NCBI RefSeq assembly: GCF_006345805.1
Contig: NW_021834547.1
Location: 1-47,308 of the forward strand
Direction of reading: 5' to 3'
Source: Octopus sinensis
Taxonomy: Eukaryota
DNA length: 47,308 nt
Below, one piece after another: positions 2,881 to 47,308 of this stretch (its first letter is position 1; the number at the start of each line of letters is the position of its first letter). The translations under genes and the position numbers were made by a program. The notes under the pieces are model-generated. The model did not search any database. It had not been told where the DNA came from and saw only the letters and a program-made list of their open reading frames with translations.

Positions 2881-2978
2881 TGGAAAGATCTTTCTTCCAT
2901 GTTATCTCCACATATAGTAACCTTAAATGATAGCACTTTCAAGTTTTTTTTACCTCCCTGAATCACTTCTATCCATCC

Positions 2979-3003
2979 ACACACACACACACACACACAC
3001 ACA

Positions 3004-3037
<34 letters not shown>

Positions 3038-3043
3038 ACACAC
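2979..3043. repeat. (CA)n microsatellite
   Basis: Direct sequence. Confidence 0.95.
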
Positions 3044-3574: not shown

Positions 3575-3830
3575 TCTGAGGTATGATAAGGCCGTATTCA
3601 GAGACTGGCACGAAGTCACTTACAAATACACACCAAATTCTGACCCATACTGTGCTGTGTCTTCTCTGCCTTTTCTACCGCTACTACAATGGCCTCTGCT
3701 GGATGGCCTCTGACCACCTTATCCAGGTATCACTGATACACACATCAACACCCTATCTCAACAGGAACACCCTCTCTCCGTTCTCCTCTACTAGAAATCT
3801 TATACCTACAGCCAATTCCGCATTCCATAC
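3575..3830 (+). mobile_element. C-terminal fragment of a LINE ORF2 (Jockey/L2-group-like)
   Basis: AVSSLCLFYRYYNGLC-like motif across a frameshift, typical of the post-RT region of these LINEs. Confidence 0.55.
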
Positions 3831-3879
3831 CATCAATCATCAAAATGACCGGACATAATACTGGCATTGTCATAAGACT

Positions 3880-5012: not shown

Positions 5013-5439
5013 TTCTTAGATATTTTGTGTGTGAGTATAATATATATTCTGAATAGAAGCAAAAGAAAATATTTTTAAAAAAATGAATAAATAATGCTGG
5101 AATTGATGGCAGCAATGTAGACATAATTCATTTAATCCTGCTGCAGGTATACTAAGCCAGTCACTTTATGCATATGTATTACTCCTGTGTCTTTTGCAGA
5201 TAAATAGAGCAGCTGCCAAAGTTAATAAAAGTTGAACAGAAAAATGTTCAAGGATTACAGATTAATGATTTCGTTTCCATAAAATTACTTTCCTTCAAAA
5301 TTATGCTTCACTTCCATGAAAATGAAAAGGTGTCAGAATGACAGGTATAAGTCACTAACATTTTTCAATATTCAGGTTAATTTTTTTTTTGTAGATTCCC
5401 CATTACTGTTGGATTTATTTTAATGAAACCACTGGCGGT

Positions 5440-5800
5440 GGAATATGAGCTATGACAACAGATGACTTGCGAACACTTGAAAGAAACGAAGCTAGAATGC
5501 TCCGCTGGATGTCAGAGTGTATATGATTTAAGAGGAAAACTATATGATTTAAGAGGCATCAGATGTTGCGAGCAAGAGAAGAGACTGCGCTGGTTTGGTC
5601 ATGTGTTGCGTGTGGATGAGGACGGTTGCATAAAGAAGAGCTGATCCCTAATTGTGGAGAGAACTTGTGGATGGAATACACGCGGGAAGATGCGATGGGA
5701 CGAAATGGTGAGAAAGTATCTTCAGAAACTGGGCTACACTGAGGAAATATCAAGGGACCGGGAGTTGTGATAATCTGCTGTACTTTAAAAGACGTACCAC
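5440..5800 (+). mobile_element. RTE LINE 3' fragment
   Basis: RGIRCCEQEKRLRWFGHVLRVDEDGCIKK followed by degenerate GRP.K.W and DR..W motifs. Confidence 0.75.
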
Positions 5801-8987: not shown

Positions 8988-9163
8988 GTAAAAGGTAAAT
9001 GATTTTCCTAGTCAAACACTTTTTAAACTTATAATAAATATTCATTGAGCAAGCTGTTGATATGCATATGAGGCATTTTATATAAATTTTATTTTTCTAC
9101 TGAATGATATAAACACTTCTGCTAATGATAAATTTATGAACGAATTTTCTGTTTATCTGCTTA

Positions 9164-10904
9164 TTGTTTGTCGTCTTCTTTAAAATTCCTCGCACTTTTG
9201 TGAATAAGTCAGACAACTTCTGCAACATTTGTGGTGAGGTGACCTTTGCATCGCAGAAGCGCCGTATTACTGCTCTGGTTAGAAAGGTATATCACCTATG
9301 TTTTGAATGCAAGATTGGCGACCAGGATAAGAAGTGGGCTCCTCACATGTGTTGCAACACTTGTGCTACTAGCCTTCACCAATGGTTGAAGAGGAAAAGG
9401 AAAGGAATATCTTTTATTGTACGAATGACATGGCGGGAGCCAACAGACAATACAGGCAATTGTTATTTCTGCATGGTACTTCCAGTGAAAAAGGGCTTTT
9501 CAAAAAAAGAGTCCCATGAATATCGAAATATTCCATTAGGTATGCGCCAGGTTCCACGTGGAAAATGTCTATCTGTTCCTGATGCACCAACTTCCATATT
9601 CTTCGAGTCAGATGAAGAAGAGGGTGAAGAGGAAGCAGAAGGGGATAACAGTGCTGGATTGCGGAATGACCAAAACTTTGATGAAACACACTCCTCTAGA
9701 TCACATCTCATAACACAACAGAAATTCCATGGCCTTGACAAGGATCTATGACTACCTGAGAATAGGGCAAAGCTGCTAGGCTCTCGTCTTCAACAGTGAA
9801 ATCTCCGAATAGCTGATGTAAACTTTCAAAATTTCATGACCGTCAGCAACAGTTCAGCAATTTTTTCATAATGGAAGGATGGAAGCACTTGATATTGAAT
9901 ACGAACCCAGTCACTGAAGGCTGTTCATGGATTCATGAAAAATTTGCCTGAAAGCTCTCTTGTTGCATAATGGCAATAGTGAACCTTCAGTTCATGTGGG
10001 CTATGATTCATATATGAAAAAAACATATGAGAATATAAAGCTTATGCTGCAATGCATAAAATATAGTGAACATCAATGGCAGCTCTGTGATGACTTAAAG
10101 GTTGTTGCCTTTGTGATGGGCTCTCAGGACGGATACACCAAGTTCTGTTACTTTCTGTGTGAATGGGATAGCTGCGCAAGAGGTTCGCACTGTATCAGGA
10201 GAGACTGGTCACCTCGGCAAACGTTGAAACTTGGGATGAAAAAATGTTCAACTTCCACCTCTCTCTGAGCCAAGCAAAATTTTTCTCCCATCACTACACA
10301 TAAAAGTGGGGCTCATGAAAAAATTTGTAAAAGCTATGGACAAATCTGGTCAAGGATTCAAGTATTTAACATCAGAATTCCCACCCCCACTGAGCAATGC
10401 TATGATAAAAGAGGGAGTCTTCATTGGTCCTCAGAGCTGAGAGCTTCTTAAAGAATTAATGGAAAACCTCGCCAAGGCTTACAAGAATATGGGATGTAAC
10501 ATGTCATGTTAAATCCACGTTTGGAGACACATTTAGACGTTTTTCTAGCGAGCTGTGGGGCAGTTAGTGACGAACATGGTTGGTGGTTTACCAAGATATT
10601 TCGACTATGGACACAGCAGTACCAGGGCAAATGGAGCAAAACGATGCTTGCTGGACATTATTCTTCAGCCCTCTATAAGCGTCAAGCAAAAAGGCAGGGA
10701 GTAGATACGGACTAGAGCATTAAACATAATGACAAAAACTGTACGTTATAATAAAATAATCACATATTATATGTCGTGTGTCTTTCAACCTATAGCTAAT
10801 ATGCATTTTTCAAGGTGATATTTGGATTCAGGACATGAAAATACATAAGAATTAACTAATCTTATTTAAGAAGCACACGACTTTTCAAAAGATGACGACC
10901 AGTG
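9164..10904 (+). mobile_element. Chapaev3/CMC-type DNA transposon, disrupted transposase plus probable right terminus
   Basis: FCNICG..GDQDKKWAPHMCCNTC, WREPT..CYFC, DDLKVVAFVMGSQDGYTKFCYFLCEWDS, SLHIKVGLMKKFVKA and GAVSDEHG motifs. The element ends ...GACCAGTG at 10904 (CAC.. on the minus strand). Confidence 0.8.
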
Positions 10905-12794: not shown

Positions 12795-12897
12795 ACATAC
12801 ATATATATAACATACATATATATATACATACATATTATATATAATACATACATATATATATATATATATACATACATATATATATATACATATATAC
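12097..12897. repeat. (TA)n/(TATG)n/(TACA)n compound microsatellite
   Basis: Direct sequence. Confidence 0.95.
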
Positions 12898-15843
12898 ATG
12901 GCACTCACAGAAACGCATCTTGAACCCGATATAGGTGATGCAGAAATACACATGCCGCAATATGCAGTCATACGCACAGATAGAAAAGGGAGGAGCCATG
13001 GTGGAGTTGCAATGTACATCCGAGATGACCTCACGCCCCAGGTCCTGCTGTCATATTCAAACTCAGTATGTGAAACTCAAATTGTACACATAAGACAACT
13101 GAATATCGTCATATGCACTACATATCGCCCACCAGACGCCCCAAAACACTCAGGCATGTTTGAAGACTGCCTAACAAAAATAGAAGTCCTCACCAACCTT
13201 GAACAGCACAACAGTGTATTCTTCATGGGTGACTTTAACCTCCCCAATGTGGAATGGCCTGGGGGGCAGATGCTCCCAGGGATGACACACCATCAGCAGG
13301 CACAGGTGGAGTCCCTGCTCCATCTCACAAATACCTCTTTCATGGAGCAAATAGTTCTGCAACCAACAAGGGCAGATAATATACTGGATCTGCTTCACAA
13401 ACAATATGGATATTATCCATAATGTTAATGTGATGCCGACAATGATCTCGGATCACAACATAATAGAGCTGTCTATGTATGGAACAAAAGCCCCTGCATA
13501 CACACAGCCTATACGAAGCACCTACCATCTCTCCAACTTAAACTTTCATAAATCAAAGTCACTGGAAGTCGATTGAGAAAGAGATCCTCAAGCAGGATTG
13601 GCCTGAATGTCTCTCCACACCGGACATAAACATGAAACACAAACACTTCATGTCCATAATACAAGCCATATGTGACAATATGTCCCAATGTGCAGGGCCA
13701 GCACACACAAGAACAAAAACAGGATCCCTAGAGAAAGGAGGATTCTTATGAGACGACGGACAAGGATTGCAAACCGCCTGAGCAAGCACAGCAAAAGTGG
13801 TGAGAAGTCTCGGCTCGAAAGAATGCTAATGGAAACTGAGAAAAAGTCTACATCAGTCCCATGAAAAGGGAGAGAGCAGATAAAGAAGCTTGGGTAATAG
13901 AAAATATAAAATCAAACCCTAAAGCTTTCTTTAAGTTTGCCAAAGAGACAGCCACAGTGCACCAGAGAATAGGACCTCTCTTCCAAAAAGATGGCTCTCT
14001 CACAGGAAATCCCACGAGGATAAGTGAAATACTGAACAAACAGTTCCAAAGTGTGTTCACTACACCTCTAGGACACAGGCAAGTAAACAACCCAGAAGAA
14101 TTCTTTGCCACTTTACCAGCGGCCAAAGAGACAAAAATTGAGTACATCAACATCGAAGAAGATGATATCACACTAGCCATTGATGAGATTGACACAAACT
14201 CAGCTGCTGGACCTGATGGATCCCAGCGATCCTTCTCAAATCGTGCAAACGAGCCCTTGCAAAACCGCTACAGCTTCTTTTTCAGAGCTTTCTTGCAAGT
14301 GGTAAGCTCCCAGTCAAACTGAAAGAGGGGGTAATATGCCCTATCCATAAGGGAGGTAGCAGAGCAGATGCTAAAAAAATTAGGCCTATCTCTCTGACCT
14401 CACACATCAGCAAAGTCATGGAACGAATAGTCCGTAAGAAACTAATCATCTTCCTTGAAGAAAATGACTTACTGTCTGACACCCAGCATGGATTTCGACC
14501 AGGTAGAGGCTGCCTAACACAGCTCCTGCAACACTATGACTGGGTGTTGAAACAGCTACTAAATGGCTCAAATGTGGATGTAATATATCTTGACTTTGCA
14601 AAAGCCTTTGATAAAGTCGACCATGGTATGATCTGTCACAAACTGCGTGGTCTCGGCAAAGGCGGGAAACTTGGAGAGTGGCTGCACAACTTCCTAAAAG
14701 ACAGAAAACAGGCAGTGGAGCCACCTCCAGGGAAACGCAAATAACAAGCGGTGTCCCACAGTGCGCTGTCTTGGGGCCACTGATGTTCATAGTGGCCCTT
14801 TCAGACATGCCTTCAGTTGCTACGATGACCACCCTTGCTAGCTATGCAGATGACACAAAAGTCTCCCACGCAATACAAAACCCTGAAAATATTGCGCATC
14901 TGCAACATGAGCTGGACACAATATACAGGTGGGCTGAGGACAACAACATGCAGTTTAATGCAGGTAAGTTCCAGGCCTGCGCTACTGGCACACAAAGGTA
15001 AATGACGTGAAGACTGGATACACTGGCCCAGGAAGAATTGCAATCCCTGAGTCAAATCAGTGCGTGACCTGGGCATTGACATGAGCAATGATGCATCTTT
15101 CCAAATGCATATTGCTAATCTGGTGATAAAATGCAGACGGCTAGCTGGATGGATTCTCCGAACTTTCAGAACAAGAGAGAAGGAGACACTGATGGTCCTA
15201 TGGAAAACATTTGTCCTCAGCCGCTTGGACTACTGCTCCCAACTTTGGTCACCACACAATATAAAACAAACAGCAGAACTCGAAGCAACTTAGAGAAGCT
15301 ACACAAAGAAAATCGTCTCAATGCAAAATGTCAGCTACTGGGAAAGACTGAAGGTATTAAACCTCTTCTCCCTCGGAGCGAGGCAGAGGAGAGAGATATG
15401 CAGTGATACATCTGGAAAATCCTGGAGGGTCTTGTCCCAAACTTTGGCATTCAAAGTTACTCCAACCGCAGAACGGGGCGCCGCTGTGTGGTGCCAAGGA
15501 TTCCAACATCACCATCAAAATACAGGTCCAGATACTGCAACAGCTTGGGTTTCAGAGGACCACAGCTCTTTAACATCCTCCCTAAATGCCTGAGAGACTT
15601 ACATGGTGTGGATGTGGGTTTCTTTAAAACTAAACTGGATCTCTTCTTGTTGGGAGTCCCAGATGAACCTACCTCACGACAGGAGACACAGGATGCGGGC
15701 AGCAGCATCGAACTCCCTTGTTGATCAAGTCCCACGTATCAGAGGTGGATTCACAAACTAGTGTAGCTCATTCAGCGGTGGTGCCCCAGCATGGCCACGG
15801 CCTTCGGGCTAAAACATTTTTAAGGATTTAAGGATTTTAAGGA
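12898..15843 (+). mobile_element. CR1/L2-group LINE, near-complete frameshifted ORF2 (APE endonuclease + RT) with 3' UTR and (AAGGATTT)n tail
   Basis: ALTETHL, GGVAMY, YRPP, MGDFNLP, PTRADNILDL, QHGFRPGRGC, YLDFAKAFDKVDH, SGVPQ..VLGPL, YADDTK, LDYCSQLWSP. Confidence 0.95.
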
Positions 15844-22531: not shown

Positions 22532-22559
<28 letters not shown>

Positions 22560-22563
<4 letters not shown>

Positions 22564-22748
22564 CCGCGTATGTACCGTTGGAGATTTTTTTCCCTCCGTC
22601 TTCCCTTCTTTGGATCTTTCCTTTTCCTATGGTTTTCACGAAGAGCTCCGCTCGAAACGTTAAACCCTCCTTCTTTCCTGGGCGTCCAATAATACTCTAC
22701 ATGTTCCACGTCCTCACGTTGTTGTGTTTTATGTTTGTGTTTTCATGT
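22560..22748 (+). mobile_element. Short Penelope-pLTR/retrozyme-like insert in (TA)n, carrying a damaged hammerhead
   Basis: GGTTT-tcacgaa-GAGC tcc GCTC-GAAACGTT-AAACC at 22631-22666; downstream CCTGGGCGTCCAATAATAC..GTTCCAC resembles the 23.7 kb and 30.9 kb copies. Confidence 0.6.
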
Positions 22749-22924
22749 ATATATATACATACATACATGTATATAATACATACATGTATATATATACATA
22801 CATACATATATAAATCTTTATATATATATATATAGATAGATAGATAGATAGATACATACATACATACATACACATATACATATATATACATACATATATA
22901 CATACATACATCATTCATACATAA

Positions 22925-22968
<44 letters not shown>

Positions 22969-23087
22969 GTAAATTAGAAACTGATTCTACTGGTTGACAT
23001 ATAATACGATGATTCTTTCCATCTCTAATATATGATATATAGAAGCTGTTTTTTTCTAATATTAAAAATTGTCCCCAGTGATATTAA

Positions 23088-23350
23088 CATGAAAACCACT
23101 ACACTGACTGTAATAATATAACAAAATGGAAGCCTGCAGTAAATATATAGAATTTAGTTGCTGGATCTACCAAAAAGAGATAAAATAGAGTTCTACCTAT
23201 TTCAAAAATTGCAGATAGCTCTACCAGTCTGAAGAATAATAGCTTGGTCTACCAGTATAAATGATAGCAACCAGTCGTATCAATGTGAGAATATATATGA
23301 AATTATTCATAAACAGAATATACAGCATTCATTTTAAGCAAATCCTTTGA
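23088..23350 (+). repeat. Copy of the unclassified 11738-11990 repeat
   Basis: Collinear similarity. Confidence 0.7.
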
Positions 23351-23484
23351 TGACATTCTCAAGAAATCATTCATCCCAATTCAGAAAATGGCAGAAAAGG
23401 TGGAGAAATTAAACTTAACAGAAGCAATTGATACCTTAAAAATGATTCTATTCTCATACATATATACATGCATACATACATACA

Positions 23485-23516
<32 letters not shown>

Positions 23517-23616
23517 CATATATATACATACATACATATACATACATACATATATATATATGTGTGTGTGTATGTTCGTTATGTGTGTGTGTTATAATAT
23601 AATATATATATATATA

Positions 23617-23684
<68 letters not shown>

Positions 23685-23699
23685 TATATATATATAATT

Positions 23700-24100
23700 G
23701 ATAAAAAAGGGCAAAAAAGTTAAGAAAAACAACAACATGGTACATGCAAATTGTTAATAGACGCTCACAGAAGGAAGGAAAGAAAAGGTGTTTTACGTTT
23801 CAAGCAAAGGTCTTTTTCAGATACAGGAGACAGAGTAAAATCCAAGAGAAAATTAAGACAAAGGGGAAATAAGGATTCACATAGACTCGGGTACTTGAAA
23901 ATATATGTACCAGGTAGGGTTGGATAAACTGTGTTTCCGGTCTATGGTTGATAAGTATCAAATCGGATATTCTGGTTGTGTACACAGAGAAACCAACTTC
24001 ATGAACATCGGACACTTATGAGAAAAGATGGAAGCAAGTGGTAGGCGTGTTGGGAATGAAAGATCCTACATGAGTGTGTCCATAAAAGGTTAACAAAAGG
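23700..24100 (-). mobile_element. Penelope-pLTR-like fragment with degenerate hammerhead (23788-23826)
   Basis: Minus strand TGTAT CTGAAAAA GACC TTT GCTT GAAAC GTA AAACA; the fragment ends at (TA)n. Confidence 0.5.
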
Positions 24101-24636
24101 TTTCAGTGGAGGAACGCGTTCTGCGGGGTCATAAACTGTTTCCCCTCCATCAGTACTTTGCTTGTTCGTCCCTCATTCGATATATTCCGTAAAATTTCAA
24201 ATTCATTACGTAAATACCATTCGCTTACGTAGACCCCGCATTTCATTTTGTATTGTCCCTCTGTGTTTCGTCCTTGCGGTCGAAATAAAAGTCATTCGTA
24301 ATTTCTCCTTTTTTGGTACGTGTTTCATTTCTGCTGAAAGTTTTGGCGTGGATGGTTGTGCTTTTGTGTGCTGCTTTGCAGCGGTCCTTTTTGTGAAAAG
24401 CCACCATTCGTTTGGTGGTTGTCAGTCGTTGAGAAAATGAAAAGCTATGCTGAATGAACAGAGGGTCGAACGTGTGTTGACCCGAGGGTACTGAAGCAGA
24501 ATGTATTCTTTCCCGATTTGGGACTGATGAAGAAATGTGGAAGTTTGATCAAGAGGGAGGGGTCAAATGTAAAGATGTCTCTTCCAGAGCGAGAGCGCGC
24601 TGTAATAAGAAAGAGGACGATAACATACAGAACTTT

Positions 24637-24772
24637 TAAATTTCTAAATATCTCAGAGATATAAGCAGTGGTGGTACGATAGAGCAGCTGTATATTGCCA
24701 ACTTAACGTGACAGTCCCATAAAGGGAATCACACCACCGCTATTTAGTCCCGGGAAGCATCAACGCTTCCTG
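24637..24772 (-). repeat. Structured leader repeat, copy 2 (copy 1 at 26828-26925)
   Basis: TAAATTTCTAAATATCTCAGAGATATAAGCAGTG..TCCCATAAAGG.AATCAC..ACCGCTATTTAG.CC..GGAAGC..GCTTCCT is shared; copy 1 lacks about 35 bp internally. Confidence 0.85.
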
Positions 24773-24844
24773 TCGGTCTTGACACATTTCCTGTGTCCTT
24801 ATGTTTACATGGGGGAGACAAGCACCCCCTCCAGCCAAGCCTGC

Positions 24845-24888
24845 ATCCAGAGACATGTTTCTGAGTCTTGCTCGTCATCAGTCTGGAT
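24845..24888 (-). ncRNA. Minimal type-I hammerhead ribozyme, core intact
   Basis: AUCCAGA CUGAUGA C GAG CAAGA CUC A GAAA CAUG UC^ UCUGGAU: 7-bp stem I, canonical core, palindromic ACAUGU helix III and GUC cleavage triplet. Confidence 0.85.
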
Positions 24889-25318
24889 TAGCATGGCTTT
24901 TTTCTTTATTATAGGCACAATGGCTTGATTATATAGAGGGGACATAACAAGACAAACGGGAACATAACACAAATGATGTATGATTGATGGAATGATTAAC
25001 AAATAATGAGAATGAGACGCTTCGACTTACTTCCGCTGCGAGACGAACTCTGAACTTTTCACATTAATTCTCAATACCATCGTGTCTCACTGTGAAGCGA
25101 AACCACAATGGTCTTCGTATCATTATCGTATAAAATGTATCATTAATTGTTCACATTAGTCTTTCTATTTTCCTTTTCTATTTTATCTTTTTTTTTTCCA
25201 AGTATTACATTTTTTCTTTTTTTTACAATTTCACAAAACACAAGTTCAATTCTCAGTTCATTTACAGTTCAATTCACAGTTCTTTTTAAACATTAATTGC
25301 ATTACGCTCGTAATTATA

Positions 25319-26779
25319 TTACCGTCTGCGTTTTTTACCACATTTATACTTTACACGACATTTCTTCTTCCTCTCGTTCTCTTTCTTTTCTTGTGTTCTC
25401 CTTCTCGAGTCTACCGCTTCGTTCACATCTTCCTCCGTTTGTGTATCTGTAATTTCTCCCGGCTGCAAATACGTCTCTTCCATCTGTTGTTCTTTATCTT
25501 TGAGCTTAAACAACTTTAGATTTCCTCGCCATATACTTCTTCGTTTTGCAGTTCCATCGCTCTCAATATCTCTTCTATAGTTGGTTCCTCAGTGTTACCA
25601 TTCTAATTAATATTATCTGCCATTCCTCTATCCGTTTCCATTTTTTCTAAAGTTGGTGAGTTTTTCAAATACTTCTCTTCCGTCTGTTCTTCTTTATCTT
25701 TGAGCTTAAAGAACTCTAGATTTTCTCGCTCTGTTTTGTCTTCGTTTTGCAGTTCCATCGCTCTCTCTATCTCTTCTATAGTTGGTTCTTCAGTGTTACA
25801 GTTCTGATATGTTATATTCTCTGCTATTCCTTTACTTTTTTCGTTTCTTTTAAAGTTGGTGACTTTTTACGTTCTCTCTTCCTGCTCTTCACCATATTAG
25901 TTCTATTATTGTTCCCCCTCTTCATTTCGTCGGCTGCATTTTCTTCCACAATTGTTTCCAACCTTTTCTCTACTTCTGTATTCGGGCATTTCCTTCGCAT
26001 ATGCCCCCTTATGCCACACAAGTAGCATTTTGGGGGTCTTCCCTGCAGCACAATATCTAACTTTTCACCGGTCGGTAATTCAATTTCATAACCCCCAAAA
26101 TTCAAGCATTGTTTTGCTCACTGTTAGTACGTTCAACTTTGTATTTCCTCTCTTCAAATACTCTCTGAAGATTCCCACTATTACCCATTCAGGCTCTATT
26201 ATGGGTGGGATTCTTCCAACTCTAATTTTCACTAACATTTTCCTGGTTTGTCGGGTATGAGAGTCCACCTATTTCCTTCTATCACTTGGTCGTTCCTCTT
26301 TGCCGCCTCCACATTTTCAAATATAACATTTACCTTGCCGTATTGGCTTCCTCTATTTATAAAAAAAACACTATAACCATACAGCACTATACCATTGCTT
26401 CTATTTGAAATTCAGGTGCTATTTCAATCCTCCTGGATTCGTTGGAGAATGTTCTGTATGCTATTGTTGAATTCCTTAACATTTTCTTTTTCTCCTCCGA
26501 CATTATAAGCTTCACATTCGTTGCTTCTCTTTCTACTTTGCTCATGTATCTCTTCATCTTTTCAGGGTCCCAATTCAACGACTTCGGTGTTAGGCTTCTT
26601 AATTTCTCTTTTTCCGGGTCTTCCACTGTCGCTTCCGCGTAGCTCTTGATTTCCAATTTTTCTTTTACCACCAAACGTCGGCTTCGTACGCATCTTCGAT
26701 TAGCTTCTCTCAAAAAACAACAAAACCTGGAGTAGCATGATTTGCTAGCTGCAGATACCTGTCTAGATCTTGTGAACAT
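25319..26779 (-). mobile_element. Frameshifted gag/ORF1-like protein with CCHC zinc knuckle (Tx1/L1-like ORF1)
   Basis: ORFs 26387-26887, 26086-26268, 25824-26105 and 25319-25513; KSYAEA, VKIRVGRIPP..EW and QGRPPKCYLCGIRGHMRRKC (CX2CX4HX4C), with a K/E-rich C-terminus. Confidence 0.8.
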
Positions 26780-26827
26780 ATATAATTCCAGTGAAATAAA
26801 TCCACTGATCACAAAAAATCGAAATAT

Positions 26828-26936
26828 TAAATTTCTAAATATCTCAGAGAGATATAAGCAGTGATGGTATCCCATAAAGGAAATCACATTACCGCTATTT
26901 AGCCCTAGGAAGCGTCGATGCTTCCTAGGGCTAAAT
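26828..26936 (-). repeat. Leader repeat copy 1, bounded by a perfect 17-bp hairpin
   Basis: Similarity to 24637-24772; ATTTAGCCCTAGGAAGC-gtcgat-GCTTCCTAGGGCTAAAT at 26897-26936. Confidence 0.85.
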
Positions 26937-27553
26937 TAGATATTGACTATTACTGATATTAGATTATTGGTGGGTTTCTTACCTTAAAAATTAATACATA
27001 AAAATTAAAATTAATATTTAACATTTGCTAGTTTTATTCCCATTGATAAATATATTTATAGTATTTATAGTATTTATTCGATACTATATAACTACGAATT
27101 GATTATTTCAGTAAGTATTTTAAATATAGATTTCCGAAAGTTCGTTTAAGTTTGTTGTTGTATTTTTGAAATTAGCTATTTCATCTTTAAATATGAAAAA
27201 TTAATTTATTAGGTCTTTATTATATGTGCATTATATTTATTTATAGAGATTATTTTAGATCTTAATTATTATATATATATACATTTATATATTTTCATTG
27301 ATAATTTATATATAAAGTCATTTTTTTAAAAATTTATGTAATTAGGTATAGACTATTACCGATATAAGATTATTGGTGGGTTCTTACCTAAAAAATTAAA
27401 ATTAATATTTAACATATAATCGATTTTGATTGTAATCATAATCGTAAGTTTTAAGTTTCTAGTTGAAAATAGAGATTATTATAAGTAAAATTATTATTTA
27501 TTTATATTTAAAAATATTGTTTACTATTTCTGATTATTTTAAATATTTCAATT

Positions 27554-27648
27554 AACCTGAAGATTGACTGTAACCATAATTCGAATTATTAATTGAATTT
27601 AAATTATTGTTATTCGAATTCGTACAGCCATGAAACGATCGTAGTGTT
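27554..27648 (+). ncRNA. Hammerhead ribozyme motif with long stem II
   Basis: CUGAAGA (27557), stem II UGACUGUA/UACAGCCA plus AAUUCGAAU/AUUCGAAUU, then GAAA CGAUCG UA; stem I is weak. Confidence 0.6.
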
Positions 27649-27789
27649 TTACTCTTTATCTTTTATTAAACTTTTAATACTTTTGATATTTATATAATAA
27701 TTTTTTAAAAAATTAATAAATAAATAAATTTATAAATAAAATAATATATAAATATAAAAATATACATACATATAAATATATTTATGCTT

Positions 27790-28240
27790 ATGGTTATGTT
27801 TTCCAGTTTCAGCTCTTGAGCTGTGGCCATGCTGGGGCACCGCCATTTGGTGTTGCTACATGATTTTACCTCATGAATGCATTTTAGCAACTGCCATTTG
27901 GTGCATGAGAGAGTTTGATGTAGCTTCCCTCATCTGCACCTCCTGCCGTAAAGTTGGTTCATCCTGGACACCTGACAGGAAGAGATCCAGTGGACTTTAA
28001 AGACATCCGCATCCACCCCATGGAGGTCCCTCAGGTTCTTCGGGAGGATATTGAAGAGCTGTGGGCCTCGGAAGCCCAGGCTATCACAGTATCTTGTCCT
28101 ACATCTTGATGGCAAATTCGGAGTCCTTGGCACCATGCAGTGGCGCCCAGTTCTGGCATTTGTGTAACTCTCGATGCCAAAGTTTGGGACAATTCCTTCC
28201 AGGATCTTCCAGATGTATATTATGGCATATCTTTCTCGCC
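27790..28240 (-). mobile_element. CR1/L2-group LINE 3' end
   Basis: VPRTPNLPSRCRTRYCDSLGFRGPQLFNILPK plus the same 3' UTR as 38515-39270. Confidence 0.9.
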
Positions 28241-28643
28241 TATTTGTATATATATATATTTGGAATTTATAAGTTTAAATTATTTAAATAATTCTTTGAA
28301 ATTTTAAATTTTATATTTTTTAATTAATTTTATGTAATGGCTTATGCGTTTCACTGTTTGATTTGCCTAATAGTGGTTTTATCTCTAATTTATAATATAA
28401 TATAATATATTTATACTATAAAATTGGATTTAATCCTAAATCTAATTTTTTCCTGTAAGTTTGGATTTATTCCCTAATATTATTATTATAACTTTATATA
28501 TATATATATATATATATACAACCCCCCACACACGCGCGCGCGCACAAAAAAGTTCATTCCCACGTCTATATGCACCTATAGACATGGAAAACAGGGCTAA
28601 AGGCAATATATATATGTGTGTGTGTGTGTGTTTGTGTGTGTGT

Positions 28644-28907
28644 GGAGGCGCAATGGCCCAGTGGTTAGGGAAGCGGACTCGCGTTTTCGATTCCCAGATC
28701 AGGCGTTGTGAGTATTTATTCAGCGAAAACACCGGCAGCGGGTGGTGGCGATCCCTGCTGTACGCTTTCGCCGCAACTTTCTTCTGTTGGCCTGCTCATT
28801 TAGCCAGCGGGGTGGCGTCATTTGAAGGTAAAATCAATGCAAAGCGCATTGTGACCAGCGATGTGTAGCAACATCTGAAAGCCTGGTCGGTCACGTGATC
28901 ACGTGAG
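28644..28907 (+). mobile_element. tRNA-derived SINE
   Basis: A-box TGGCCCAGTGG, B-box-like TTCGATTCC, and a body ending GGTCACGTGATCACGTGA plus an A-run. Confidence 0.75.
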
Positions 28908-30803
28908 AAAAAAAAAATATATATAAGTTCTAATTTACCCTAATTATACAAAAAAAGTCAGTAGCTGGTTCAACCATTGCGTAATATAGTAGTTATCACT
29001 ACTAATAAAGAAAATTTGCTGTTCCACATATGTGAAAAATAATAATCAGCTGTACATTGGTATACTGGAAAATGTATTAAGATATTCATAAGCAAAATTT
29101 ATAAGGTTGCTGTTAAAACAGAGTCTTTGATGAAATTCCAAAACACACATTGGTCATAATTCGTGCAAACAGAAGTAATAAAGAAAAAATGAAAAACATT
29201 AAATTACTTGGGATTCTTCGTCACTATAACTGTCTTCTTCAGCCGATGATTCAAAAGATAGTGATCTACAAAAATGAACCAAGAAGAAAGTTTAAGATTA
29301 GAGAAAGTTGTTTGTCATATGGAGTGTAGTTAACATTCTGGACATTTGAACTTCATCTAAAAGTTAAGAAAAGGAGAAAAGTGATAGTGTTGCATGGGTT
29401 GGGAGCAAGAAACAATGGAATATTACTGAAAGACTAATATAGGAGGTGATGAGAAGGATAACCAAGAGGGAGTTAAGGTCAGAATGAGTCAGAATGAGGC
29501 TAGAGGAATGGTCAGGGTCTGGTGAACAAAGGCGGAGAGAAAAGCTAAGAACATATGAGGAGAAGGTAGAAGGGGTCAGTGAGGATTATGACTAAATTTA
29601 TGGAGTAATATCTATGTGTATTTAGACCTGTTGTGAAATTAGGAATACATTTCAATAAGTAGCTTTGAACAATTTTATTTCAAAAGAGAGGTCAGCAAAT
29701 CTTGACGAAGTGCTCAGACAGTAAAACTCGTCAGTTTGATTTTTATTACAAGCTGCTGAAAATATAGTTCATAGACTTCATTTCAGCATAAGGTACATTT
29801 ACGCATAAAGTATGGGGTGTAAATACTCATGTAATTAATATCAAGGCATCACATTTCTACAATTTTCAAATGGCATTTAATTGGTACAATTTTGATTGTG
29901 TTTTGATATATAGCCTTCTGCCATTTGTCTCGGTTTTGTGGGATGTGTGGGTGTGTGAGATCTGATGAACTGTAAAAGACAGTAAATCTGCTTAATTTAA
30001 TTCACATCTCTAGAAAAACTTCTGCTTCAATGTATGATTTCTTACATAAAATAAGACCTCGAATTTCAACAATTACCATAAGGTATTTTGTTTGACCGTT
30101 TTATAATTCTGCTAATCCACTACATTTTCTTCAGATGTATATTAAGACACAAACAAACAGTAACATTAGAAGAGATAAACTGATAGGTTAAACATTTCTG
30201 AATTGACTGTATGTATTTGGTGGAGATACTTAGCGTTTATGGGGCAAATTTCAAAGCTACACTAAATACACGGTGGTAACACACTTTACATTGTTCTTAG
30301 TTTGCACGGATTTACTTGAGCATCGCTTTTGTTGGAACCAAAATGTTTTCGCTTTTCCCTTTATATCTACAGGAATCCCCTTTGTAGTTTCCGATTCAAT
30401 ATTTCCTTTTCCTTATCGTTATAACGTCATTTCATTTCTTCAATACAAAAGGCTCTGACTAATGCCTAAGTTAGAATTAATATCATATATTTATAAATAT
30501 CTGATAAATATTTTCGAGACTAAATAATAATTTCAAATGTCCAGAAAATTGATTTTTTTAGAACTGAAGATATATTATCAAATCTAGTTCATAATGGTCA
30601 AAGTCGTCAACAGAAACTATGAAAGAGTGAAGTATAAAAGAAACAACAGAAACAAAGAAACAATCAGAGCCACTAAAATTGTTGGATCTCTTGTAACTTT
30701 AAAGCAAACATCACACCTTCATGGTTACATTACATCAACAAAGGAAAATACTTTACTTCAAATAGAATATAAAATCCAATATCACCATATTACCTATACC
30801 AAT

Positions 30804-30870
<67 letters not shown>

Positions 30871-31125
30871 ACGGAAGCTTTATGAAAATAGACAAAAGAC
30901 GAAGGCAGGTTTACGGAAATAAACAAAAGACGAAGGCAGGTGGAATACAAACAAACAATTGTATTAGTATGGCGCTCAGGAAACATAAATAAAACAAGTC
31001 TTTAACGTTTCGAGCCTACGCTCTTCAACAGAAAGATACACAGAGAAGAAACACAGAAAGAAGGAGAGAAAAAAAATGCGTGCAGAGGCTAGCGAATCAA
31101 CATGGCGATCTGATTTCGGCTAGAA
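30871..31125 (-). mobile_element. Short Penelope-pLTR/retrozyme-like element ending at (TA)n
   Basis: Contains the hammerhead 30999-31036, the CCTGAGCG..TAATAC..TTCCAC block shared with the 22.6 kb copy, and a duplicated ACAAAAGACGAAGGCAGGT. Confidence 0.65.
30999..31036 (-). ncRNA. Minimal hammerhead ribozyme variant (CUGUUGA core)
   Basis: UCUUU CUGUUGA A GAGC GUAG GCUC GAAAC GUU^ AAAGA; stems I and II pair perfectly; palindromic AACGUU. Confidence 0.7.
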
Positions 31126-32317
31126 ATAATATTGCTTATTTTTCTTTCGAAAAAGATTTTTTACTCGATTGCTTGGAAGTGCTAAGGTGGAAACCGAGAT
31201 GTATAACTTGGTATAAGAAGAGACAAAAATTGAAATAATCATTTCATATTTATGATTTACATCAACATAATAAATACATAACTACATACACAGATATAAC
31301 ATATATCAAATTTAAGGTTAAAGGACGTTGAAACAAGGATTAATAGTTATAAGATACATCGACAGTAGTTAGAAATCCTAATTATAGATTTAAAATTTTA
31401 GAAGAGTTCCGAAGAAATGATGTACAGAGGTTTATAACATCAATATGAAGCAATTCGAAGGCCGTTTTTGGAGTCCATTAGTCAGCAGGTATGAATCCTT
31501 TCGATTCACACTGACATGTCCCCTTTACTAGGGATAAATAAATAGATAATTAATCAAGTTTGAAGATATGTAAGAGAAAAGAAAAGAAAGGAAGGAAATT
31601 TCTGGTTACATTACGTTGGTCGTCGGTTACTCTATCAGATACTGACCACTTTTACGATGATTCACGCTTATATACAAAAGGAAACTTCCAGTGTAGGATG
31701 ATGGGTGAAGTTTAAAAAACAATCGATTTTCCAATAAATTCCGAGAATAATCAATTACTAATAGCAGAAGAAGCAGGACTGCCAAATACTTAATTCCTTG
31801 TAACTCGTCTTATAGAGTTCCATGAAAGATGAGTGAAATGTATGGGTTCATGAATGAATGGTATCAGACAATTTATTTAATATGCCCGAATTGCAATATT
31901 TTAGAATAATGTATGATTCTCTAATGCATAAAGTACATTTGTAACCTATAGCATTATAGGGGAGGCCGCTTGCTAGTATATATGCTCTTATTCCTTAAAT
32001 TATGTATATATGAGGGTAGAGTAGTAGAATTTTTATATTTAATGTTAGTAAATGAATTTAAATGCGTTCTATAACTTTTTTTTTAAATACAACAGTACTA
32101 ACTATATATGTTCCAGTCTGATACTTATCTGATACTACTGTACATCCGTATACTACATTTTTATGGAGACAGAATCATTCAAGTGGGCATAAATCGATTT
32201 TTCTACAACTACATATTTTCCCTAATTTATTTTTGCTATTATCTATATATTTTGGAGGGGTGGATTTCCATTATTTAAGGCTACCTTAAAGAATTTTAGT
32301 TGAGGAAATCAACTCCG

Positions 32318-32771: not shown

Positions 32772-32808
<37 letters not shown>

Positions 32809-32927
32809 TTGTTATATTTCGGAATGGTCATTTTGCCAGTTTAGCCAATAAAAACACACGCACTATATACTTGGTGTTACTTTGCTTCAGTGTTATTTAT
32901 TTTTTACATTAATCTTAATCTTATTTC

Positions 32928-32971
32928 GGCCAGAGTTCTTTCGTCACACTCCTGTGACCGATGCAGTGGTC
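32928..32971 (-). ncRNA. Degenerate hammerhead downstream of the Penelope endonuclease
   Basis: GACCA cugcaucg GUCAC aggagu GUGAC GAAA GAAC UC UGGCC; the core is mutated but the stems are retained. Confidence 0.45.
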
Positions 32972-33464: not shown

Positions 33465-33775
33465 TAGTGTTCCATTCCAGTTACCTATTCAGGCTAGGTT
33501 TATCTTCTATTATGTGTGTAGCTTCCGTAATTTGTCTGAATGTTGCATCTGTTCTATGCGTAGACAAGATTTTAACATCTCTGTTGTTGATTGATCCCCC
33601 GTGTTCCTGCTCGGCGTGTTGGTACAGAATCGATGAGCTTTTACCTTCCTTAAGTTCTCTCCAATGCCCATTTACCCGCTCTCCTATGCTTCGTGCCGTT
33701 TCCCCTGCGTATGTCGTTGTCTTGTTACTGTATCATCCCTCTATACATCTTATACTATAGACTACTATTATCTTA
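33465..33775 (-). mobile_element. Penelope-like element GIY-YIG endonuclease fragment
   Basis: Hand translation VVYSIRCIEG*YSNKTTTYAGETARSIGERVNGHWRELKEGKSSSILYQHAEQEHGG..KIL..RQITEATHIIEDKPSLNR*LEW. Confidence 0.85.
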
Positions 33776-38210: not shown

Positions 38211-38461
38211 GAGAGACCTGCAAGGTGTGGATGCAGATGTCTTTAAAATGAAACTGGATCTCTTCCTGTCAGGTGTCCCAGATGAACCAACTTCACGGCA
38301 GGAGGTGCAAATGAGGGCAGCTGCATCGAACTCTCTCATGCACCAAATGGCAGTTGCTAAAAAACTTTCGTGAAGTAAAACCAAGTAGCAACACCAAATG
38401 GCGGTGCCCCAGCATGGCCACAGCTCATAAGCTGAAACTAGAATCAATCAATCAATCAATC
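38211..38461 (+). mobile_element. CR1/L2-group LINE extreme 3' end with (AATC)n tail
   Basis: Near-identical to 39020-39270. Confidence 0.9.
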
Positions 38462-38494
<33 letters not shown>

Positions 38495-38514
38495 TGTATG
38501 TATATATATATATA

Positions 38515-39270
38515 TGACCTTTCATGTACATGTTGCTAAACTGACAATGAAATGTAGACGGCTGGCTGGATGGATTCTTAGAAACTTTAGAACAAGAGAA
38601 CAAGAAACGATGATGGTCCTCTGGAAGACACTTGTCCTAAGCCACTTTGACCACTTTGACTATTGCTCTCAGCTATGGTCACCATCCAGTGTCAAGTTGA
38701 TCACAGAACTTGAGGCGATCCAACGAAGCTACACAAAGAAGATAGCCTCTATGCAGAATGTAAGCTACTGGGAAAGACTCAAGAGATTAAAATTATATTC
38801 CCTGGAGCGTAGGCGGGAAAGATATGCCATAATATACATCTGGAAGATCCTGGAGGGAAGTGTCCTGAACTTTGGCATCGAGAGTTACGCAAATGCCAGA
38901 ACTGGGCGCCACTGCGTGGTGCCTAGGACTCCAAACCTGCTATCAAGATGTAGGACAAGATTCTGTGATAGCCTGGGCTTCCGAGGCCCACAGCTCTTCA
39001 ATATCCTCCCGAAGAACCTGAGAGACCTGCATGGGGTGGATACAGATGTCTTTAAAATGAAGCTGGATCTCTTCCTGTCAGGTGTCCATGATGAACCAAC
39101 TTCACGGCAGGAGGGGCAGATGAGGGCAGCTGCATCGAACTCTCTCATGCACCAAATAGCAGTTGCTAGAAAGCCTCCATGAAGTGAAACCAAGTAGCAA
39201 CACCAAATGGCGGTGCCCCAGCATGGCCACAGCTCATAAGCTGAAACTAGAATCAATCAATCAATCAATC
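38515..39270 (+). mobile_element. CR1/L2-group LINE 3' fragment with (AATC)n tail
   Basis: ORF 38514-39182 (GWILRNFRTR..DYCSQLWSP..SYWERLK.LKLYSLERRRER). Confidence 0.95.
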
Positions 39271-41895: not shown

Positions 41896-43140
41896 TTGAT
41901 TTCAGTAAGGCCTTCGATAGGGTCGATCACAAGATACTATTGAAAAAACTATCCAACATTGGTGTCTCTGGAAAGTTACTGAAATGGATCAAGTGTTTCC
42001 TGACAGACAGATCTCAACATGTTGTAGTTGAAGGGGTAAAATCAAGCCCAGCCAAAGTCAGTAGTGGCGTTCCGCAAGGCACTGTGCTGGGCCCACTTCT
42101 TTTCATCATTTACATTAATGACATTAACGACATCATCAAGCACAGCAACATAAAACTTTTTGCAGATGATTCCAAGCTACAGAAGGTCATAAATGAGGCG
42201 AGTGACCGGACATGCCTTCAGTCAGATCTACTGGCTGTTATCCAATGGGCAGAAAAAAACAATATGCTGCTGAACGAGGATAAATCTGAGTTAATCCACT
42301 TTGGAAAAGAGGATGCCCTGAAACTCCCATACTCCCTTCCTTCAGGTGAAACTCTCGCGGCGTCCAACAACATCAGAGACTTGGGTAATTGTGGACAACA
42401 ACATAAGCTGGGCCACTCATATAAACACCAAAGTTGACATGGCCCGCAGAATGTGTTCCTGGATTCTCAGAACTTTCCAGTCGAGAGATATCCACACCCA
42501 TTATCCTTCTCTTCTCCACTTTTGCCCGACCCCACCTTGAATACTGTTGTCCACTGTGGTCTCCCCACACAATACAAGGTATCATAAAAGTTGAAGCAAC
42601 TCAAAGGGCAATCACAAAAAAGATAGATGGCATGACAGGCCTCGACTATTGGGGTCGACTAGAAAAGCTAAAACTTTATTCTCTCCAACGTCGTCGTGAG
42701 CGCTACATCATCTGCATGATGTGGAAATATTCCATCAGCATTGCCCAAATGATGTTGGCATCACCTTTAAGTACAAATCGAAGGCTTGGACCCCGCGCCA
42801 TCCCCCCAACAAAAATCGCACTCTCATCTCATAACAACAATACGGCACAATTATTTCACCTCAATTGGCCCCGCTCTCTTTAACATTACACACAACAAAC
42901 ACACATTAAAACGGAAACTGACCCTATAGGGTTCAAGAAGTCTTTAGACAGATTCTTTCAAGAAATCCCGGATAAACCCCATACACCCGGATATGTCTCT
43001 GTAAACAATAACTCTCTACTTGAGTGGGCCATAGTGCCCAAATTCTGACTTGAAAGACTTCACCAGTGGTGCTATTAAGTTAGAACATGGCCTGGGCCAA
43101 TAATGGCCGAAACCTATCAAATCAGTATCAAAGTATCAAG
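41896..43140 (+). mobile_element. Second CR1/L2-group family, 5'-truncated RT to 3' end
   Basis: [42 protein letters not shown], and an (AAGTATC)-like tail. Confidence 0.95.
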
Positions 43141-44656: not shown

Positions 44657-44694
<38 letters not shown>

Positions 44695-44709
44695 TAATAT
44701 ATATATATA

Positions 44710-45931
44710 AAGTCGATCATGGAATGATATGTCACAAACTGCGTGATCTTGGCATAGTTGGAAAATTGGGAGAATGGCTTCATGACTTTCTGAAGAATAG
44801 AAGTCAGGTGGCCACTTCCATTAACACGCAAATAATGAGCGGTGTTCCGCAGGGCACTGTTTTGGGACCACTACTGTTCATAATGGCCCTCTCAGACATG
44901 CCCTCAGCCACGCAGAGAGCCACGATCACAAGTTATGCAGATGATACAAAAGTTTCACAGGCAATGCAGAACCCTGAGGACACTAAGCACCTGCAATGTG
45001 AGCTGGACGAAATATACAAGTGGGCTGAAAAGAATAGCATGCAGTTGAATGCTGAAAAGTTTCAAGCTTTATACTATCAGCATGCAAAACTGAATGCAAT
45101 ACCCATTGAATACACTGGACCCGGAGGGATTGCAATCCCAGAGGCACAATGAGTGCGTGACCTGGGTATTCACATGAGTGATGACGCGACCTTTCATGTA
45201 CATGTTGCTAAACTGGCAATGAAATGTAGACGGCTGGCTGGATGGATCCTTAGAACCTTCAGAACAAGAGAACAAGAAACCATGATGGTCCTCTGGAAGA
45301 CACTTGTCCTAAGCCACTTTGGCTATTGCTCTCAGCTATGGTCACCATCCGGTGTCAAGATGATCACAGAATTTGAGGCGATCCAACGAAGCTACACGAA
45401 GAAGATAGCCTCTGTGCAGCATATGAGCTACTGGGAAAGACTCAAGAGATTAAAGCTCTATTCCCTGGAGCGTAGGCGAGAAAGATATGCCACAATATAT
45501 CTGGAAGATCTTGGAAGGACTTGTCCCAACTTTGGCATCGAGAGTCACACAAATGCCAGACCCGGCGCACTGCATAGTACCAAGGACTCCAAATTTGCCA
45601 TCAAGATGTAGGACAAGATATTTGTGATAGCCTGGGCTTCAGAGGCCCAAGCCCTTCAATATACTCCCAAAGAACCTGAGGGACCTGCATGCTGTATATG
45701 CGGATGTCTTTAAAGTAGGACTGGACCTCTTCCTGTCAGGTGTCCCGGATGACCAAAGCTTCACGGCAGGAGGTGCAGATGAGGGCCCTCGCATCGAACT
45801 CTCTCATGCATCAGATGGCGTTTGCTAAAAATCATCCGTGAGGTAAAATCGTGTAGCAAACAATATGGCGGTGCCCCAGCATGGCCACAGCTCATTAGCT
45901 GAAACTGGAAAAATCAAAATCAAAATCAATC
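44710..45931 (+). mobile_element. CR1/L2-group LINE, 5'-truncated RT to 3' end
   Basis: [29 protein letters not shown], and the 3' UTR with (AAAATC)n tail. Confidence 0.95.
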
Positions 45932-46388: not shown

Positions 46389-47308
46389 TAACTTAGAATA
46401 ACTTAGAAAGGTTTTTGGCCAGTATTGGCCCAGCCATGGTCTAACTTAATAGCACCACCTGGCGAAGTCTTTCAGTTCAGGATTTGGGCACCAAGGCCCA
46501 TTCGAGCAGAGAGTTATTGTTGCGGAGACATATCCGGGTGTGGATGGTTTGTCCGATACTGTTTGAAGGAATTTTCCAAAGACTTCTTGAATTTTGTGTG
46601 GTCAGTTTCTTTTTTGACGTGTCCTGGTGTGTATGTTGAAGAGAGCGGGTCCAATTGAGGTGAAATAGTTGTTCCGTATTGTCGTTATGTGATGCGATTT
46701 AGATTTTTGTTGTGGACGGATGGCACGTGGTCCAAGCCTTGGATGCATTTTGAAGGTGATGCAACATCATTCGGACATTGTGATGAATATTTCCACATCA
46801 TAACAGATAATGTAGCGTTCACGGCGTCGTTGGAGCGAATACAATTTCAGCTTCTCTAGTCTACCCCAGTAGTCAAGGTCTGACATGCCATCTATCTTTT
46901 TGTGATTGACCTTTGGGGAGCTTCAATTCTCATAATATTTTGTTTTGTGTAGGGAGACCACAGTGGACAGCAGTATTCAAGGTGGGGTCGGGCAAAAGTG
47001 GAGAAGAGAAGGATAATAGCGTGGGAATCTCTCGACTGGAAGGTTCTGAGAATCCAGGAACACATTCTGCGGGCCATGTCAACTTTGTGCTTATATGTGT
47101 AGCCCAGCTTATGTTGTTGTCCACTGTTACTCCCAGGTCTCTGATGTTGTTGGATGCCATGAGAATTTCTCTCCAGAAGGAAGAGAGTAATGGGAGTTTC
47201 AGAGCGTCCTCCCTCCAAAGTGGATCAGTCGAATTTGTCTTCATTTAGCAACATGTTATTCTTTTCCGCCCATTGGACAACAGCTAGTAGGTCTGACTGA
47301 AGGGTTAT
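46389..47308 (-). mobile_element. Second-family CR1/L2-group LINE copy, inverted relative to 41896-43140
   Basis: [31 protein letters not shown] and a homologous 3' UTR; runs off the window end. Confidence 0.95.

What the first reader, a model, noticed from the sequence alone, without database searches (positions are those of the whole stretch)
22631..31036. Three related short elements with compensatory changes in hammerhead stem I
Seen: copies at 22631 (+), 23788 (-) and 30999 (-) share a GAGC-loop-GCUC GAAAC GU(U/A)-type block (mutated at 23788) and a downstream block. Stem I differs while pairing is kept: GGUUU/AAACC, UGU(A)U/AAACA and UCUUU/AAAGA. Each runs into (TA)n about 80-130 nt downstream. 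Inference: structure was selected in the progenitors of a TA-targeting PLE-pLTR or retrozyme-like family.
Basis: partly seen in the sequence, partly recalled or inferred. Interest (0 to 1): 0.7.

Follow-up and report, generated by a model that had tools for sequence, protein, structure and literature searches.

The report
Penelope-element hammerhead tails, altered core family
Three short repeats each carry a tiny hammerhead self-cutting-RNA motif of the kind already known from Penelope-like jumping genes and are likely inert tail pieces inserted at TA repeats, but one belongs to an abundant family that keeps a U where hammerheads normally need an A, which would test whether these elements need to cut their RNA at all.

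Summary
The three motifs are real: minimal type I hammerheads (stem I, 8-nt core, GAGC-loop-GCUC, palindromic GAAACGU-H), each followed by a shared block and by (TA)n 81, 92 and 127 nt downstream. The same core occurs at 117 metagenome loci, where stem I covaries across families and 17 of 117 loci have a Penelope-like (PLE) GIY-YIG frame upstream. So this is the PLE minimal hammerhead described in 2014, covariation included. Three copies cannot show covariation by themselves (best of 6 pairings, two changing pairs). No tandem unit or adjacent PLE gene was found, so they are not retrozymes as defined. All three cores depart from CUGANGA. Copy 3 is a ~256-nt member of a very abundant family, and in 4 of 4 laid runs no other letter reached 10% at core position 6, which reads U instead of A; the free positions N7 and H17 do vary. 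That family-wide A6U core is the only unusual feature. I did not find it in the papers I could search, but the key 2017 paper was not available.

The parts
22562..22747 (+). Copy 1: 186-nt element lying wholly between two (TA)n arrays
22631..22666 (+). Copy 1 minimal type I hammerhead; core damaged (C3 and G5 not present in register), stem II GAGC/GCUC intact, palindromic AACGUU
   Evidence: 25.8 bits, E 1.8e-5, partly circular model
22674..22695 (+). Copy 1 downstream shared block
22533..22561 (.). (TA)n 5' of copy 1
22748..22966 (.). (TA/TACA)n array 3' of copy 1 (inferred target)
23697..23880 (-). Copy 2 element; 3' end at the (TA)n array, 5' limit not defined (23880 is approximate)
23789..23825 (-). 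Copy 2 minimal hammerhead; G8 to A with C3 kept, stem II with a C:C mismatch, stem I 4 of 5 pairs
   Evidence: 11.1 bits, E 0.49
23753..23772 (-). Copy 2 downstream shared block
23456..23696 (.). (TA/TACA)n array 3' of copy 2 (inferred target)
30872..31127 (-). Copy 3: ~256-nt member of a very abundant repeat family; summed contig depth 1e5-1e6 inside, about 1e2 in the 5' flank
30999..31036 (-). Copy 3 minimal hammerhead, core CUGUUGAA (U at position 6 = 31028; N7 = 31027; H17 = 31004), stems I and II intact
   Evidence: (38 bits, E 4e-9, partly circular model)
30961..30982 (-). Copy 3 downstream shared block
30879..30941 (-). 31-nt head-to-tail duplication near copy 3's 3' end
30802..30870 (.). 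(TA)n 3' of copy 3; loose ends of laid contigs also run into (TA)n here (25 contigs in X1, 66 in X4)
33466..33774 (-). Separate broken C-terminal GIY-YIG endonuclease remnant of a PLE (2 stops); same strand as copy 3 but 2.3 kb away and not shown to belong to it

Best explanation
The three repeats carry minimal type I hammerhead motifs next to (TA)n and are likely short 3'-end (pLTR) pieces of endonuclease-bearing Penelope-like retrotransposons from different subfamilies, likely inserted at TA repeats by a PLE reverse transcriptase/GIY-YIG protein and predicted to be inert as lone, core-altered ribozymes. Shown here: the motifs, the (TA)n junctions, the high abundance and sharp 5' edge of copy 3's family, the same core 100-190 nt behind PLE GIY-YIG frames elsewhere, and stem I covariation across those families. 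Inferred from published PLE work: the source transcript holds two such motifs whose palindromic AACGU(U) pairs into helix III so that cleavage occurs after H17; the endonuclease nicks AT-rich DNA and the RT copies the RNA from near its 3' end, leaving 5'-short copies. The stem I differences would record selection in each source subfamily, not in these copies. In copy 3's family position 6 is U, which by analogy with the tested A6C variant would weaken cleavage; the family likely spread anyway because HHR cleavage was not needed for PLE insertion in vitro (PMC11167929).
For: Motif anatomy matches the four features listed for metazoan PLE min-HHRs in PMC4209133: extra base between 9 and 10.1, G10.1-C11.1, palindromic 15.2-16.2, short helix I. 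Same core at 117 metagenome loci; H17, which the pattern left open, is non-G in 118 of 118 matches. 17 of 117 loci have a same-strand GIY-YIG-like hit upstream, mostly ending 97-200 nt before the core; 3 of the 17 supplied the queries and 5 pairs look like one locus assembled twice. L023, L064 and L076 show a CxxCxxC-type linker before the endonuclease. Stem I pair 2 is paired in 33 of 38 clusters in four pair types (shuffle mean 15.9, 0 of 5000); covariation score 0.269, slid controls at most 0.108. Copy 3's repeat spans 30872-31127 with plateau/flank depth ratios of about 4,900 (X1) and 8,300 (X4); these are not copy numbers. Loose ends show sister subfamilies that share the core and the downstream block but have other spacers, and a shared (TA)n junction. 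(TA)n insertion preference is recorded for PLE families, including octopus Hydra and Naiad families (PMC8557442 text and File S1).
Against: No RT or GIY-YIG remnant was found directly upstream of any of the three copies (profile search; frameshift-aware alignment with 5 queries), so the PLE link is by the shared motif in other animals' DNA, not by this locus. Stem I pairs 3-5 are no better than shuffled across the 38 clusters (17, 12, 9 of 38). Copy 2 does not fold into the hammerhead (-1.6 kcal/mol, z 0.29), and copy 3 loses the fold in a 111-nt context. Rfam has no hammerhead hit at E<=1 (0 of 140 matches). Whether copy 3's family is a self-contained non-autonomous unit or 5'-truncated PLE ends cannot be told from contigs.
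Confidence: 0.8

Rival explanations
1. They are solo monomers of a non-LTR retrozyme family, produced from tandem arrays elsewhere in the genome through circular RNA.
For: Unit size 186-256 nt and 35-45% GC fit the retrozyme range (PMC7229834 passages). Retrozyme monomers and a PLE-pLTR origin are described (bioRxiv 10.64898/2026.07.22.740005). Copy 3's family has a sharp 5' edge.
Against: No tandem unit covers any copy. Copies 1 and 2 are tail-to-tail on opposite strands. The motif lacks helix III, as in PLE min-HHRs, whereas retrozymes were described with canonical type I HHRs. Whole elements show no excess self-pairing (z -0.53, -0.47, +0.12). Laid contigs end in (TA)n rather than in another unit.
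Confidence: 0.1
2. The family is a SINE-like non-autonomous element in which the hammerhead-looking stretch is kept for another reason, such as a Pol III B-box-like GCUCGAAAC or a protein-binding site, and never acts as a ribozyme.
For: GCTCGAAAC is one mismatch from a B-box pattern in copies 1 and 3 (box consensus recalled). Family-wide U6 and a fixed unit length would fit loss of catalysis.
Against: No A-box-like match in any copy. The full hammerhead layout, with non-G H17 and covarying stem I, is shared with PLE ends. In copy 3's family the only variable sites inside the motif are N7 and H17. This rival overlaps with the best explanation if the partner enzyme is a PLE protein.
Confidence: 0.08
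3. The three loci are unrelated, and stem I pairing is a chance product of T-rich upstream and A-rich downstream tracts.
For: Upstream parts are not clearly similar (31, 13 and 260 of 500 controls score as high). Three inner stem positions face AAA in all copies.
Against: Motif parts align above controls (0, 0 and 3 of 500); copy 1-copy 2 downstream 0 of 500. The chance that all six outer stem positions pair, from local composition, is about 1e-4 (register chosen after the fact). Loose ends link core and block in sister subfamilies.
Confidence: 0.02

Closest known systems
Minimal type I hammerheads (min-HHR) in pLTRs of metazoan Penelope-like elements (Cervera and De la Pena 2014, PMC4209133)
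   Same: No helix III loop, palindromic 15.2-16.2, extra base before G10.1, G10.1-C11.1, helix I of 4-5 bp, mostly single dispersed motifs from truncated PLEs, many families with compensatory changes.
   Different: Helix II is 4 bp here. Copy 3's family has U at position 6; the core change named in the text I read is U3-A8. The paper's figures and one supplement file could not be searched.
Canonical EN+ PLE clades (Neptune, Hydra, Nematis) with (TA)n insertion bias (Craig et al. 2021, PMC8557442)
   Same: HHR near the 3' end, insertion into (TA)n; metagenome relatives with this core have a C-terminal GIY-YIG with a Cys linker.
   Different: No coding region is attached here, so the clade of the partner is not determined. 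The published Hydra-1_Obim HHR has a 7-bp stem II and a real stem III, unlike these.
Non-LTR retrozymes (Cervera and De la Pena 2020, PMC7229834; Li et al. 2026 preprint)
   Same: Non-coding, 150-450 nt, type I HHR, PLE-pLTR related.
   Different: No tandem array, minimal rather than canonical HHR, no excess self-pairing, circular RNA not tested.
Natural A6C hammerhead of phage Bcep176 (Perreault et al. 2011, PMC3088659)
   Same: Natural change at core position 6; kobs below 0.1 per min.
   Different: A single phage sequence with C; here U, apparently fixed in an abundant animal repeat family.

Membership tests
PLE minimal hammerhead | Stem I - core - stem II - GAAA-palindrome-UH - stem I layout without loop 3 | tested here: met
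   copy 2 only partly
PLE minimal hammerhead | Extra nucleotide between 9 and 10.1, and G10.1-C11.1 pair | tested here: met
   Copy 3: extra A at 31024, G 31023 with C 31012; copy 1 keeps G-C; copy 2 has G-U
PLE minimal hammerhead | Intact catalytic core CUGANGA...GAAA...UH | tested here: not met
   Copy 1 lacks C3/G5 in register, copy 2 has G8A, copy 3 has A6U; lowers 'is an active ribozyme', not 'derives from one'
PLE minimal hammerhead | Covarying helix I across families | tested here: met
   Across 27-38 metagenome family representatives; the three window copies alone are too few
PLE minimal hammerhead | Self-cleavage as a dimer | not testable with these tools
   Needs an in vitro assay; self-duplex of the palindrome predicted at -5.5 kcal/mol
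EN+ Penelope-like element | RT plus GIY-YIG reading frame upstream of the 3' pLTR | tested here: not met
   None upstream of the three copies; present upstream of the same core in 17 of 117 other loci. They are filed as derived fragments, not as autonomous PLEs
EN+ Penelope-like element | 3' end at a microsatellite or AT-rich target, 80-130 nt behind the HHR | tested here: met
   family-wide for copy 3 (loose ends)
EN+ Penelope-like element | Partial tandem / inverted pLTR arrangement | tested here: inconclusive
   Single motifs only; copies 1 and 2 are tail-to-tail about 950 nt apart across TA arrays and differ in sequence
Non-LTR retrozyme | Head-to-tail tandem units, each with a complete HHR | tested here: not met
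   one motif per element. Arrays elsewhere in the genome could not be searched (no genome held)
Non-LTR retrozyme | Small, highly self-paired circular RNA | not testable with these tools
   Only contigs were available; fold z-scores near zero
tRNA-derived SINE | A and B boxes in a 5' head | tested here: not met
   No A-box-like match; the B-box-like match lies inside the hammerhead (box patterns recalled)

The most novel reading that the evidence does not exclude
Copy 3's family is a non-autonomous PLE derivative that spread to thousands of copies, in several subfamilies and at least two species, with a fixed A6U hammerhead core while the rest of the fold stayed under selection. Either PLE hammerheads serve as a folded recognition signal for the PLE protein rather than as scissors, or protein binding rescues a core change that cripples ordinary hammerheads.
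Probability: 0.3. Interest if true: 0.6.

Novelty: new variant of a known kind. Interest (0 to 1): 0.33.

Why it matters
As posed, the finding is an ordinary instance of a motif described in 2014. The added point matters because the role of the hammerhead in endonuclease-bearing PLEs is stated to be unclear (PMC8557442), and catalytic mutants did not block insertion in vitro (PMC11167929). An abundant family with a fixed core change, living beside sister subfamilies with A6 (copies 1 and 2 have A6), is a natural control: comparing U6 and A6 versions for cleavage and for use as template by a PLE protein tests whether cutting or only folding is selected. Such cores would also be missed by CUGANGA descriptors.

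Tried and rejected
No genome was held, so genomic copies could not be collected and R-scape-type analysis on this species was not possible. Rfam: 140 matches at E<=1, none a hammerhead, nearly all microsatellite-driven miRNA hits. A by-eye reading of a GIY-YIG remnant upstream of copy 2 failed: no profile hit and frameshift-aware scores within background for 5 of 5 queries. The remnant at 33466-33774 has no Pfam hit and no hit in the word-indexed longer-protein search (47 candidates, none at E<=0.001), but 133 relatives in the full search; it was not linked to copy 3. A possible fourth degenerate motif at 32920-32947 was not among the 16 covariance-model matches at E<=5. The U6 pattern has 0 matches in viral contigs and 0 in prokaryote genomes; a stem-II-anchored pattern has 0 in viral contigs; copy 3 has no phage match. 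Expression: no RNA holder listed; X10 and X15 are only guessed to be RNA and are not used as evidence of transcription. Literature for the U6 core: 'hammerhead+A6U+core' gave one paper, about twister ribozymes; 'hammerhead+CUGUNGA' 0; 'hammerhead ribozyme+octopus' 4 listed, none on this family by title; supplement searches 0 hits. Lunse et al. 2017 (PMC5785218) is not held. Earlier scan notes: none by sequence, by genome or for the first word set.
Full report
Setting. The window is animal-type repeat-rich DNA: many (TA)n/(TACA)n arrays and broken non-LTR retrotransposon frames. It looks octopus-like from repeat motifs I recall; that label comes from no call. No genome is held.

Observation. 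The three motifs are at the stated places. Each reads stem I 5' strand, a 7-8-nt core, a 4-bp stem II, GAAACGU-H and stem I 3' strand, then a shared block and a (TA)n array 81, 92 and 127 nt after stem I. The stem-II-to-GAAACGT pattern has 2 exact matches in the window and none in 100 shuffles. Short-window folds give stems I and II for copies 1 and 3 (-10.0 and -10.8 kcal/mol, z -1.96 and -1.23) but not copy 2 (z 0.29); in about 110-nt contexts only copy 1 keeps the fold. Rfam has no hammerhead among 140 matches at E<=1.

Homology. Motif parts align above resampled controls (0, 0 and 3 of 500 as high). Copy 1 and copy 2 also align downstream (0 of 500). Copy 3's downstream part does not (119 and 211 of 500), and upstream parts are weak (31, 13, 260 of 500). 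So they are relatives from different subfamilies, copies 1 and 2 being closer.

Covariation in the three copies. Stem I has 5, 4 and 5 Watson-Crick pairs. The inner three positions face AAA in all copies; only pairs 4 and 5 change on both sides. The true pairing scores 14, the five other permutations 10-12, which with three sequences cannot be significant. A local-composition null gives about 1e-4, with copy 1's register chosen after the fact.

What the motif is. A scan of metagenome contigs with the canonical-core version of the motif gave 117 loci and 118 matches. H17, left open, is C, U or A in 118 of 118. Grouped into 38 clusters, stem I pair 1 is paired in 36 of 38 and pair 2 in 33 of 38 in four pair types (shuffle mean 15.9; 0 of 5000), while pairs 3-5 are at chance (17, 12, 9 of 38). 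On 27 of the 38 representatives (11 dropped as near-repeats of two larger families) the covariation score is 0.269 against 0.104 +/- 0.021, 0 of 500 shuffles, slid controls at most 0.108; stem II is invariant by construction. Three loci carry open C-terminal GIY-YIG frames with a Cys linker, ending 100, 190 and 676 nt before the core. With these as queries 17 of 117 loci have a same-strand upstream hit; only 80 loci had long flanks and five pairs look duplicated. A covariance model from the 27 ranks copy 3 (38 bits, E 4e-9) and copy 1 (25.8 bits, E 1.8e-5) first and copy 2 fifth of 16 (E 0.49); it is partly circular because the scan pattern came from these copies. This matches the minimal hammerheads of Penelope-like elements: Cervera and De la Pena list families full of compensatory changes, the extra base between 9 and 10.1, G10.1-C11.1, the palindrome, and mostly single motifs from truncated PLEs, with no monomer cleavage and low dimer cleavage (PMC4209133, parts 1-2 of 4 read).

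Link to a coding region here. None of the three has an upstream RT or endonuclease remnant. A broken PLE GIY-YIG lies at 33466-33774 on copy 3's strand (133 relatives, some with upstream RT), but 2.3 kb of other sequence separates it from copy 3's 5' edge.

Copy 3's family. Contigs of 4 of the 24 listed runs (X1 and X4 DNA of two organisms; X10 and X15 only guessed RNA) were laid on 30872-31330 at 80% likeness. Summed depth is 1e5-1e6 from 30872 to about 31127 and about 1e2 just beyond; plateau/flank ratios are about 4,900 and 8,300. The tool warns these are not copy numbers, and overlapping contigs inflate them. Loose ends run into (TA)n at 30873 and show sister subfamilies that leave the alignment right at the ends of stem I (231-378 contigs in the DNA runs) and carry the same downstream block with a shorter spacer.

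The core in that family. Inside 31000-31035 only two sites have other letters at 10% or more: N7 (C 17-28%, A 21-30%, rest U) and H17 (A 67-92%). Outside, 17 of 220 sites vary. Position 6 (31028) has no listed alternative. Three rows were hidden, but the tool's per-run tallies of changes from A equal the listed rows in 4 of 4 runs, so none is hidden there. U6 is therefore the norm among sequences that can be laid on copy 3, not decay of this copy. The chance that both variable sites fall on the seven unconstrained positions is 0.033, a modest sign that the fold is still kept. Limits: one laying, depth-weighted contigs, and A6 sister families such as copies 1 and 2 may be too distant to be laid. 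The outermost stem I pair varies on one side only (31036, 12-25%), so there is no covariation within this family.

How it likely works. Inferred from published work: a PLE transcript with two motifs pairs the palindromes into helix III and cleaves after H17 (PMC4209133; PMC6765202 passages); the protein nicks AT-rich DNA and reverse-transcribes from within the RNA (PMC11167929 passages and section 3 part 2); (TA)n bias is recorded for several PLE clades (PMC8557442 passages, section 11 and supplement rows). Short 3' copies land at TA arrays as lone motifs. Copies 1 and 2 have then decayed (C3/G5; G8 and stem II). A natural A6C core cleaves below 0.1 per min (PMC3088659 section 8), so U6 probably weakens cleavage too. 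Hammerhead mutants did not reduce insertion in vitro, which would let a U6 family spread.

Retrozyme test. No tandem unit, one minimal motif per element, no excess self-pairing. The defining tandem feature (preprint part 1 of 5 and passages; PMC7229834 passages) is not met here; arrays elsewhere could not be searched.

In print? Searches for a U6 hammerhead core found nothing relevant (supplements 71, 72). An octopus repeat annotation has no occurrence of 'ribozyme' or 'hammerhead' in its main text (PMC13282606 passages). Lunse et al. 2017 was seen only in a reference list; figures, one supplement file of PMC4209133 and the preprint's supplements could not be seen and may bear on this. Earlier scan notes describe similar solo PLE hammerheads in other genomes as ordinary; they are leads only.

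Verdict. Real feature, known kind. The stem I covariation is expected and already described. The family-wide A6U core is a likely new variant worth one genome-wide count and one cleavage assay. Interest 0.33.

Noticed in passing
window 33466-33774 (-): Broken C-terminal GIY-YIG of a PLE; closest relatives 53-60% identical, longer ones carry an upstream RT. No Pfam hit.
   Followed up: partly
window 32920-32947 (-): Possible fourth, heavily damaged hammerhead-like stretch about 520 nt after that endonuclease and about 110 nt before an (AAT)n run at 32772-32808, the layout of a PLE 3' end; not detected by the covariance model.
   Followed up: partly
window 30879-30941: 31-nt tandem duplication at copy 3's 3' end, the size of the optional PLE 'tail'; not known whether it is private to this copy.
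   Followed up: no
window 31208-31303: A second, low-level repeat upstream of copy 3 (depth rises to 2,000-5,700 against about 100-200 beside it).
   Followed up: no
L043: Two near-identical hammerheads on opposite strands about 30 nt apart (604-632 -, 661-689 +), a head-to-head inverted pLTR arrangement.
   Followed up: no
L008, L013, L037, L038: GIY-YIG hits on both strands upstream of the hammerhead, consistent with the inverted 5'-truncated segment known in PLE insertions.
   Followed up: no
window 9140-10268 (+): Frames with a Cys-rich N-terminal part that look like a decayed DNA-transposon gene (by eye).
   Followed up: no
window 12811-15724, 27801-28274, 38253-39182, 41900-42883, 44664-45611, 46892-47244: Several fragments of CR1/L2-like retrotransposons (family label recalled), many bordered by TA arrays; some pairs 91-93% alike.
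   Followed up: no
window 25466-26440 (-): Zinc-knuckle (CxxCxxxxHxxxxC) frame followed by a 201-nt tandem duplication, like a decayed LINE ORF1.
   Followed up: no
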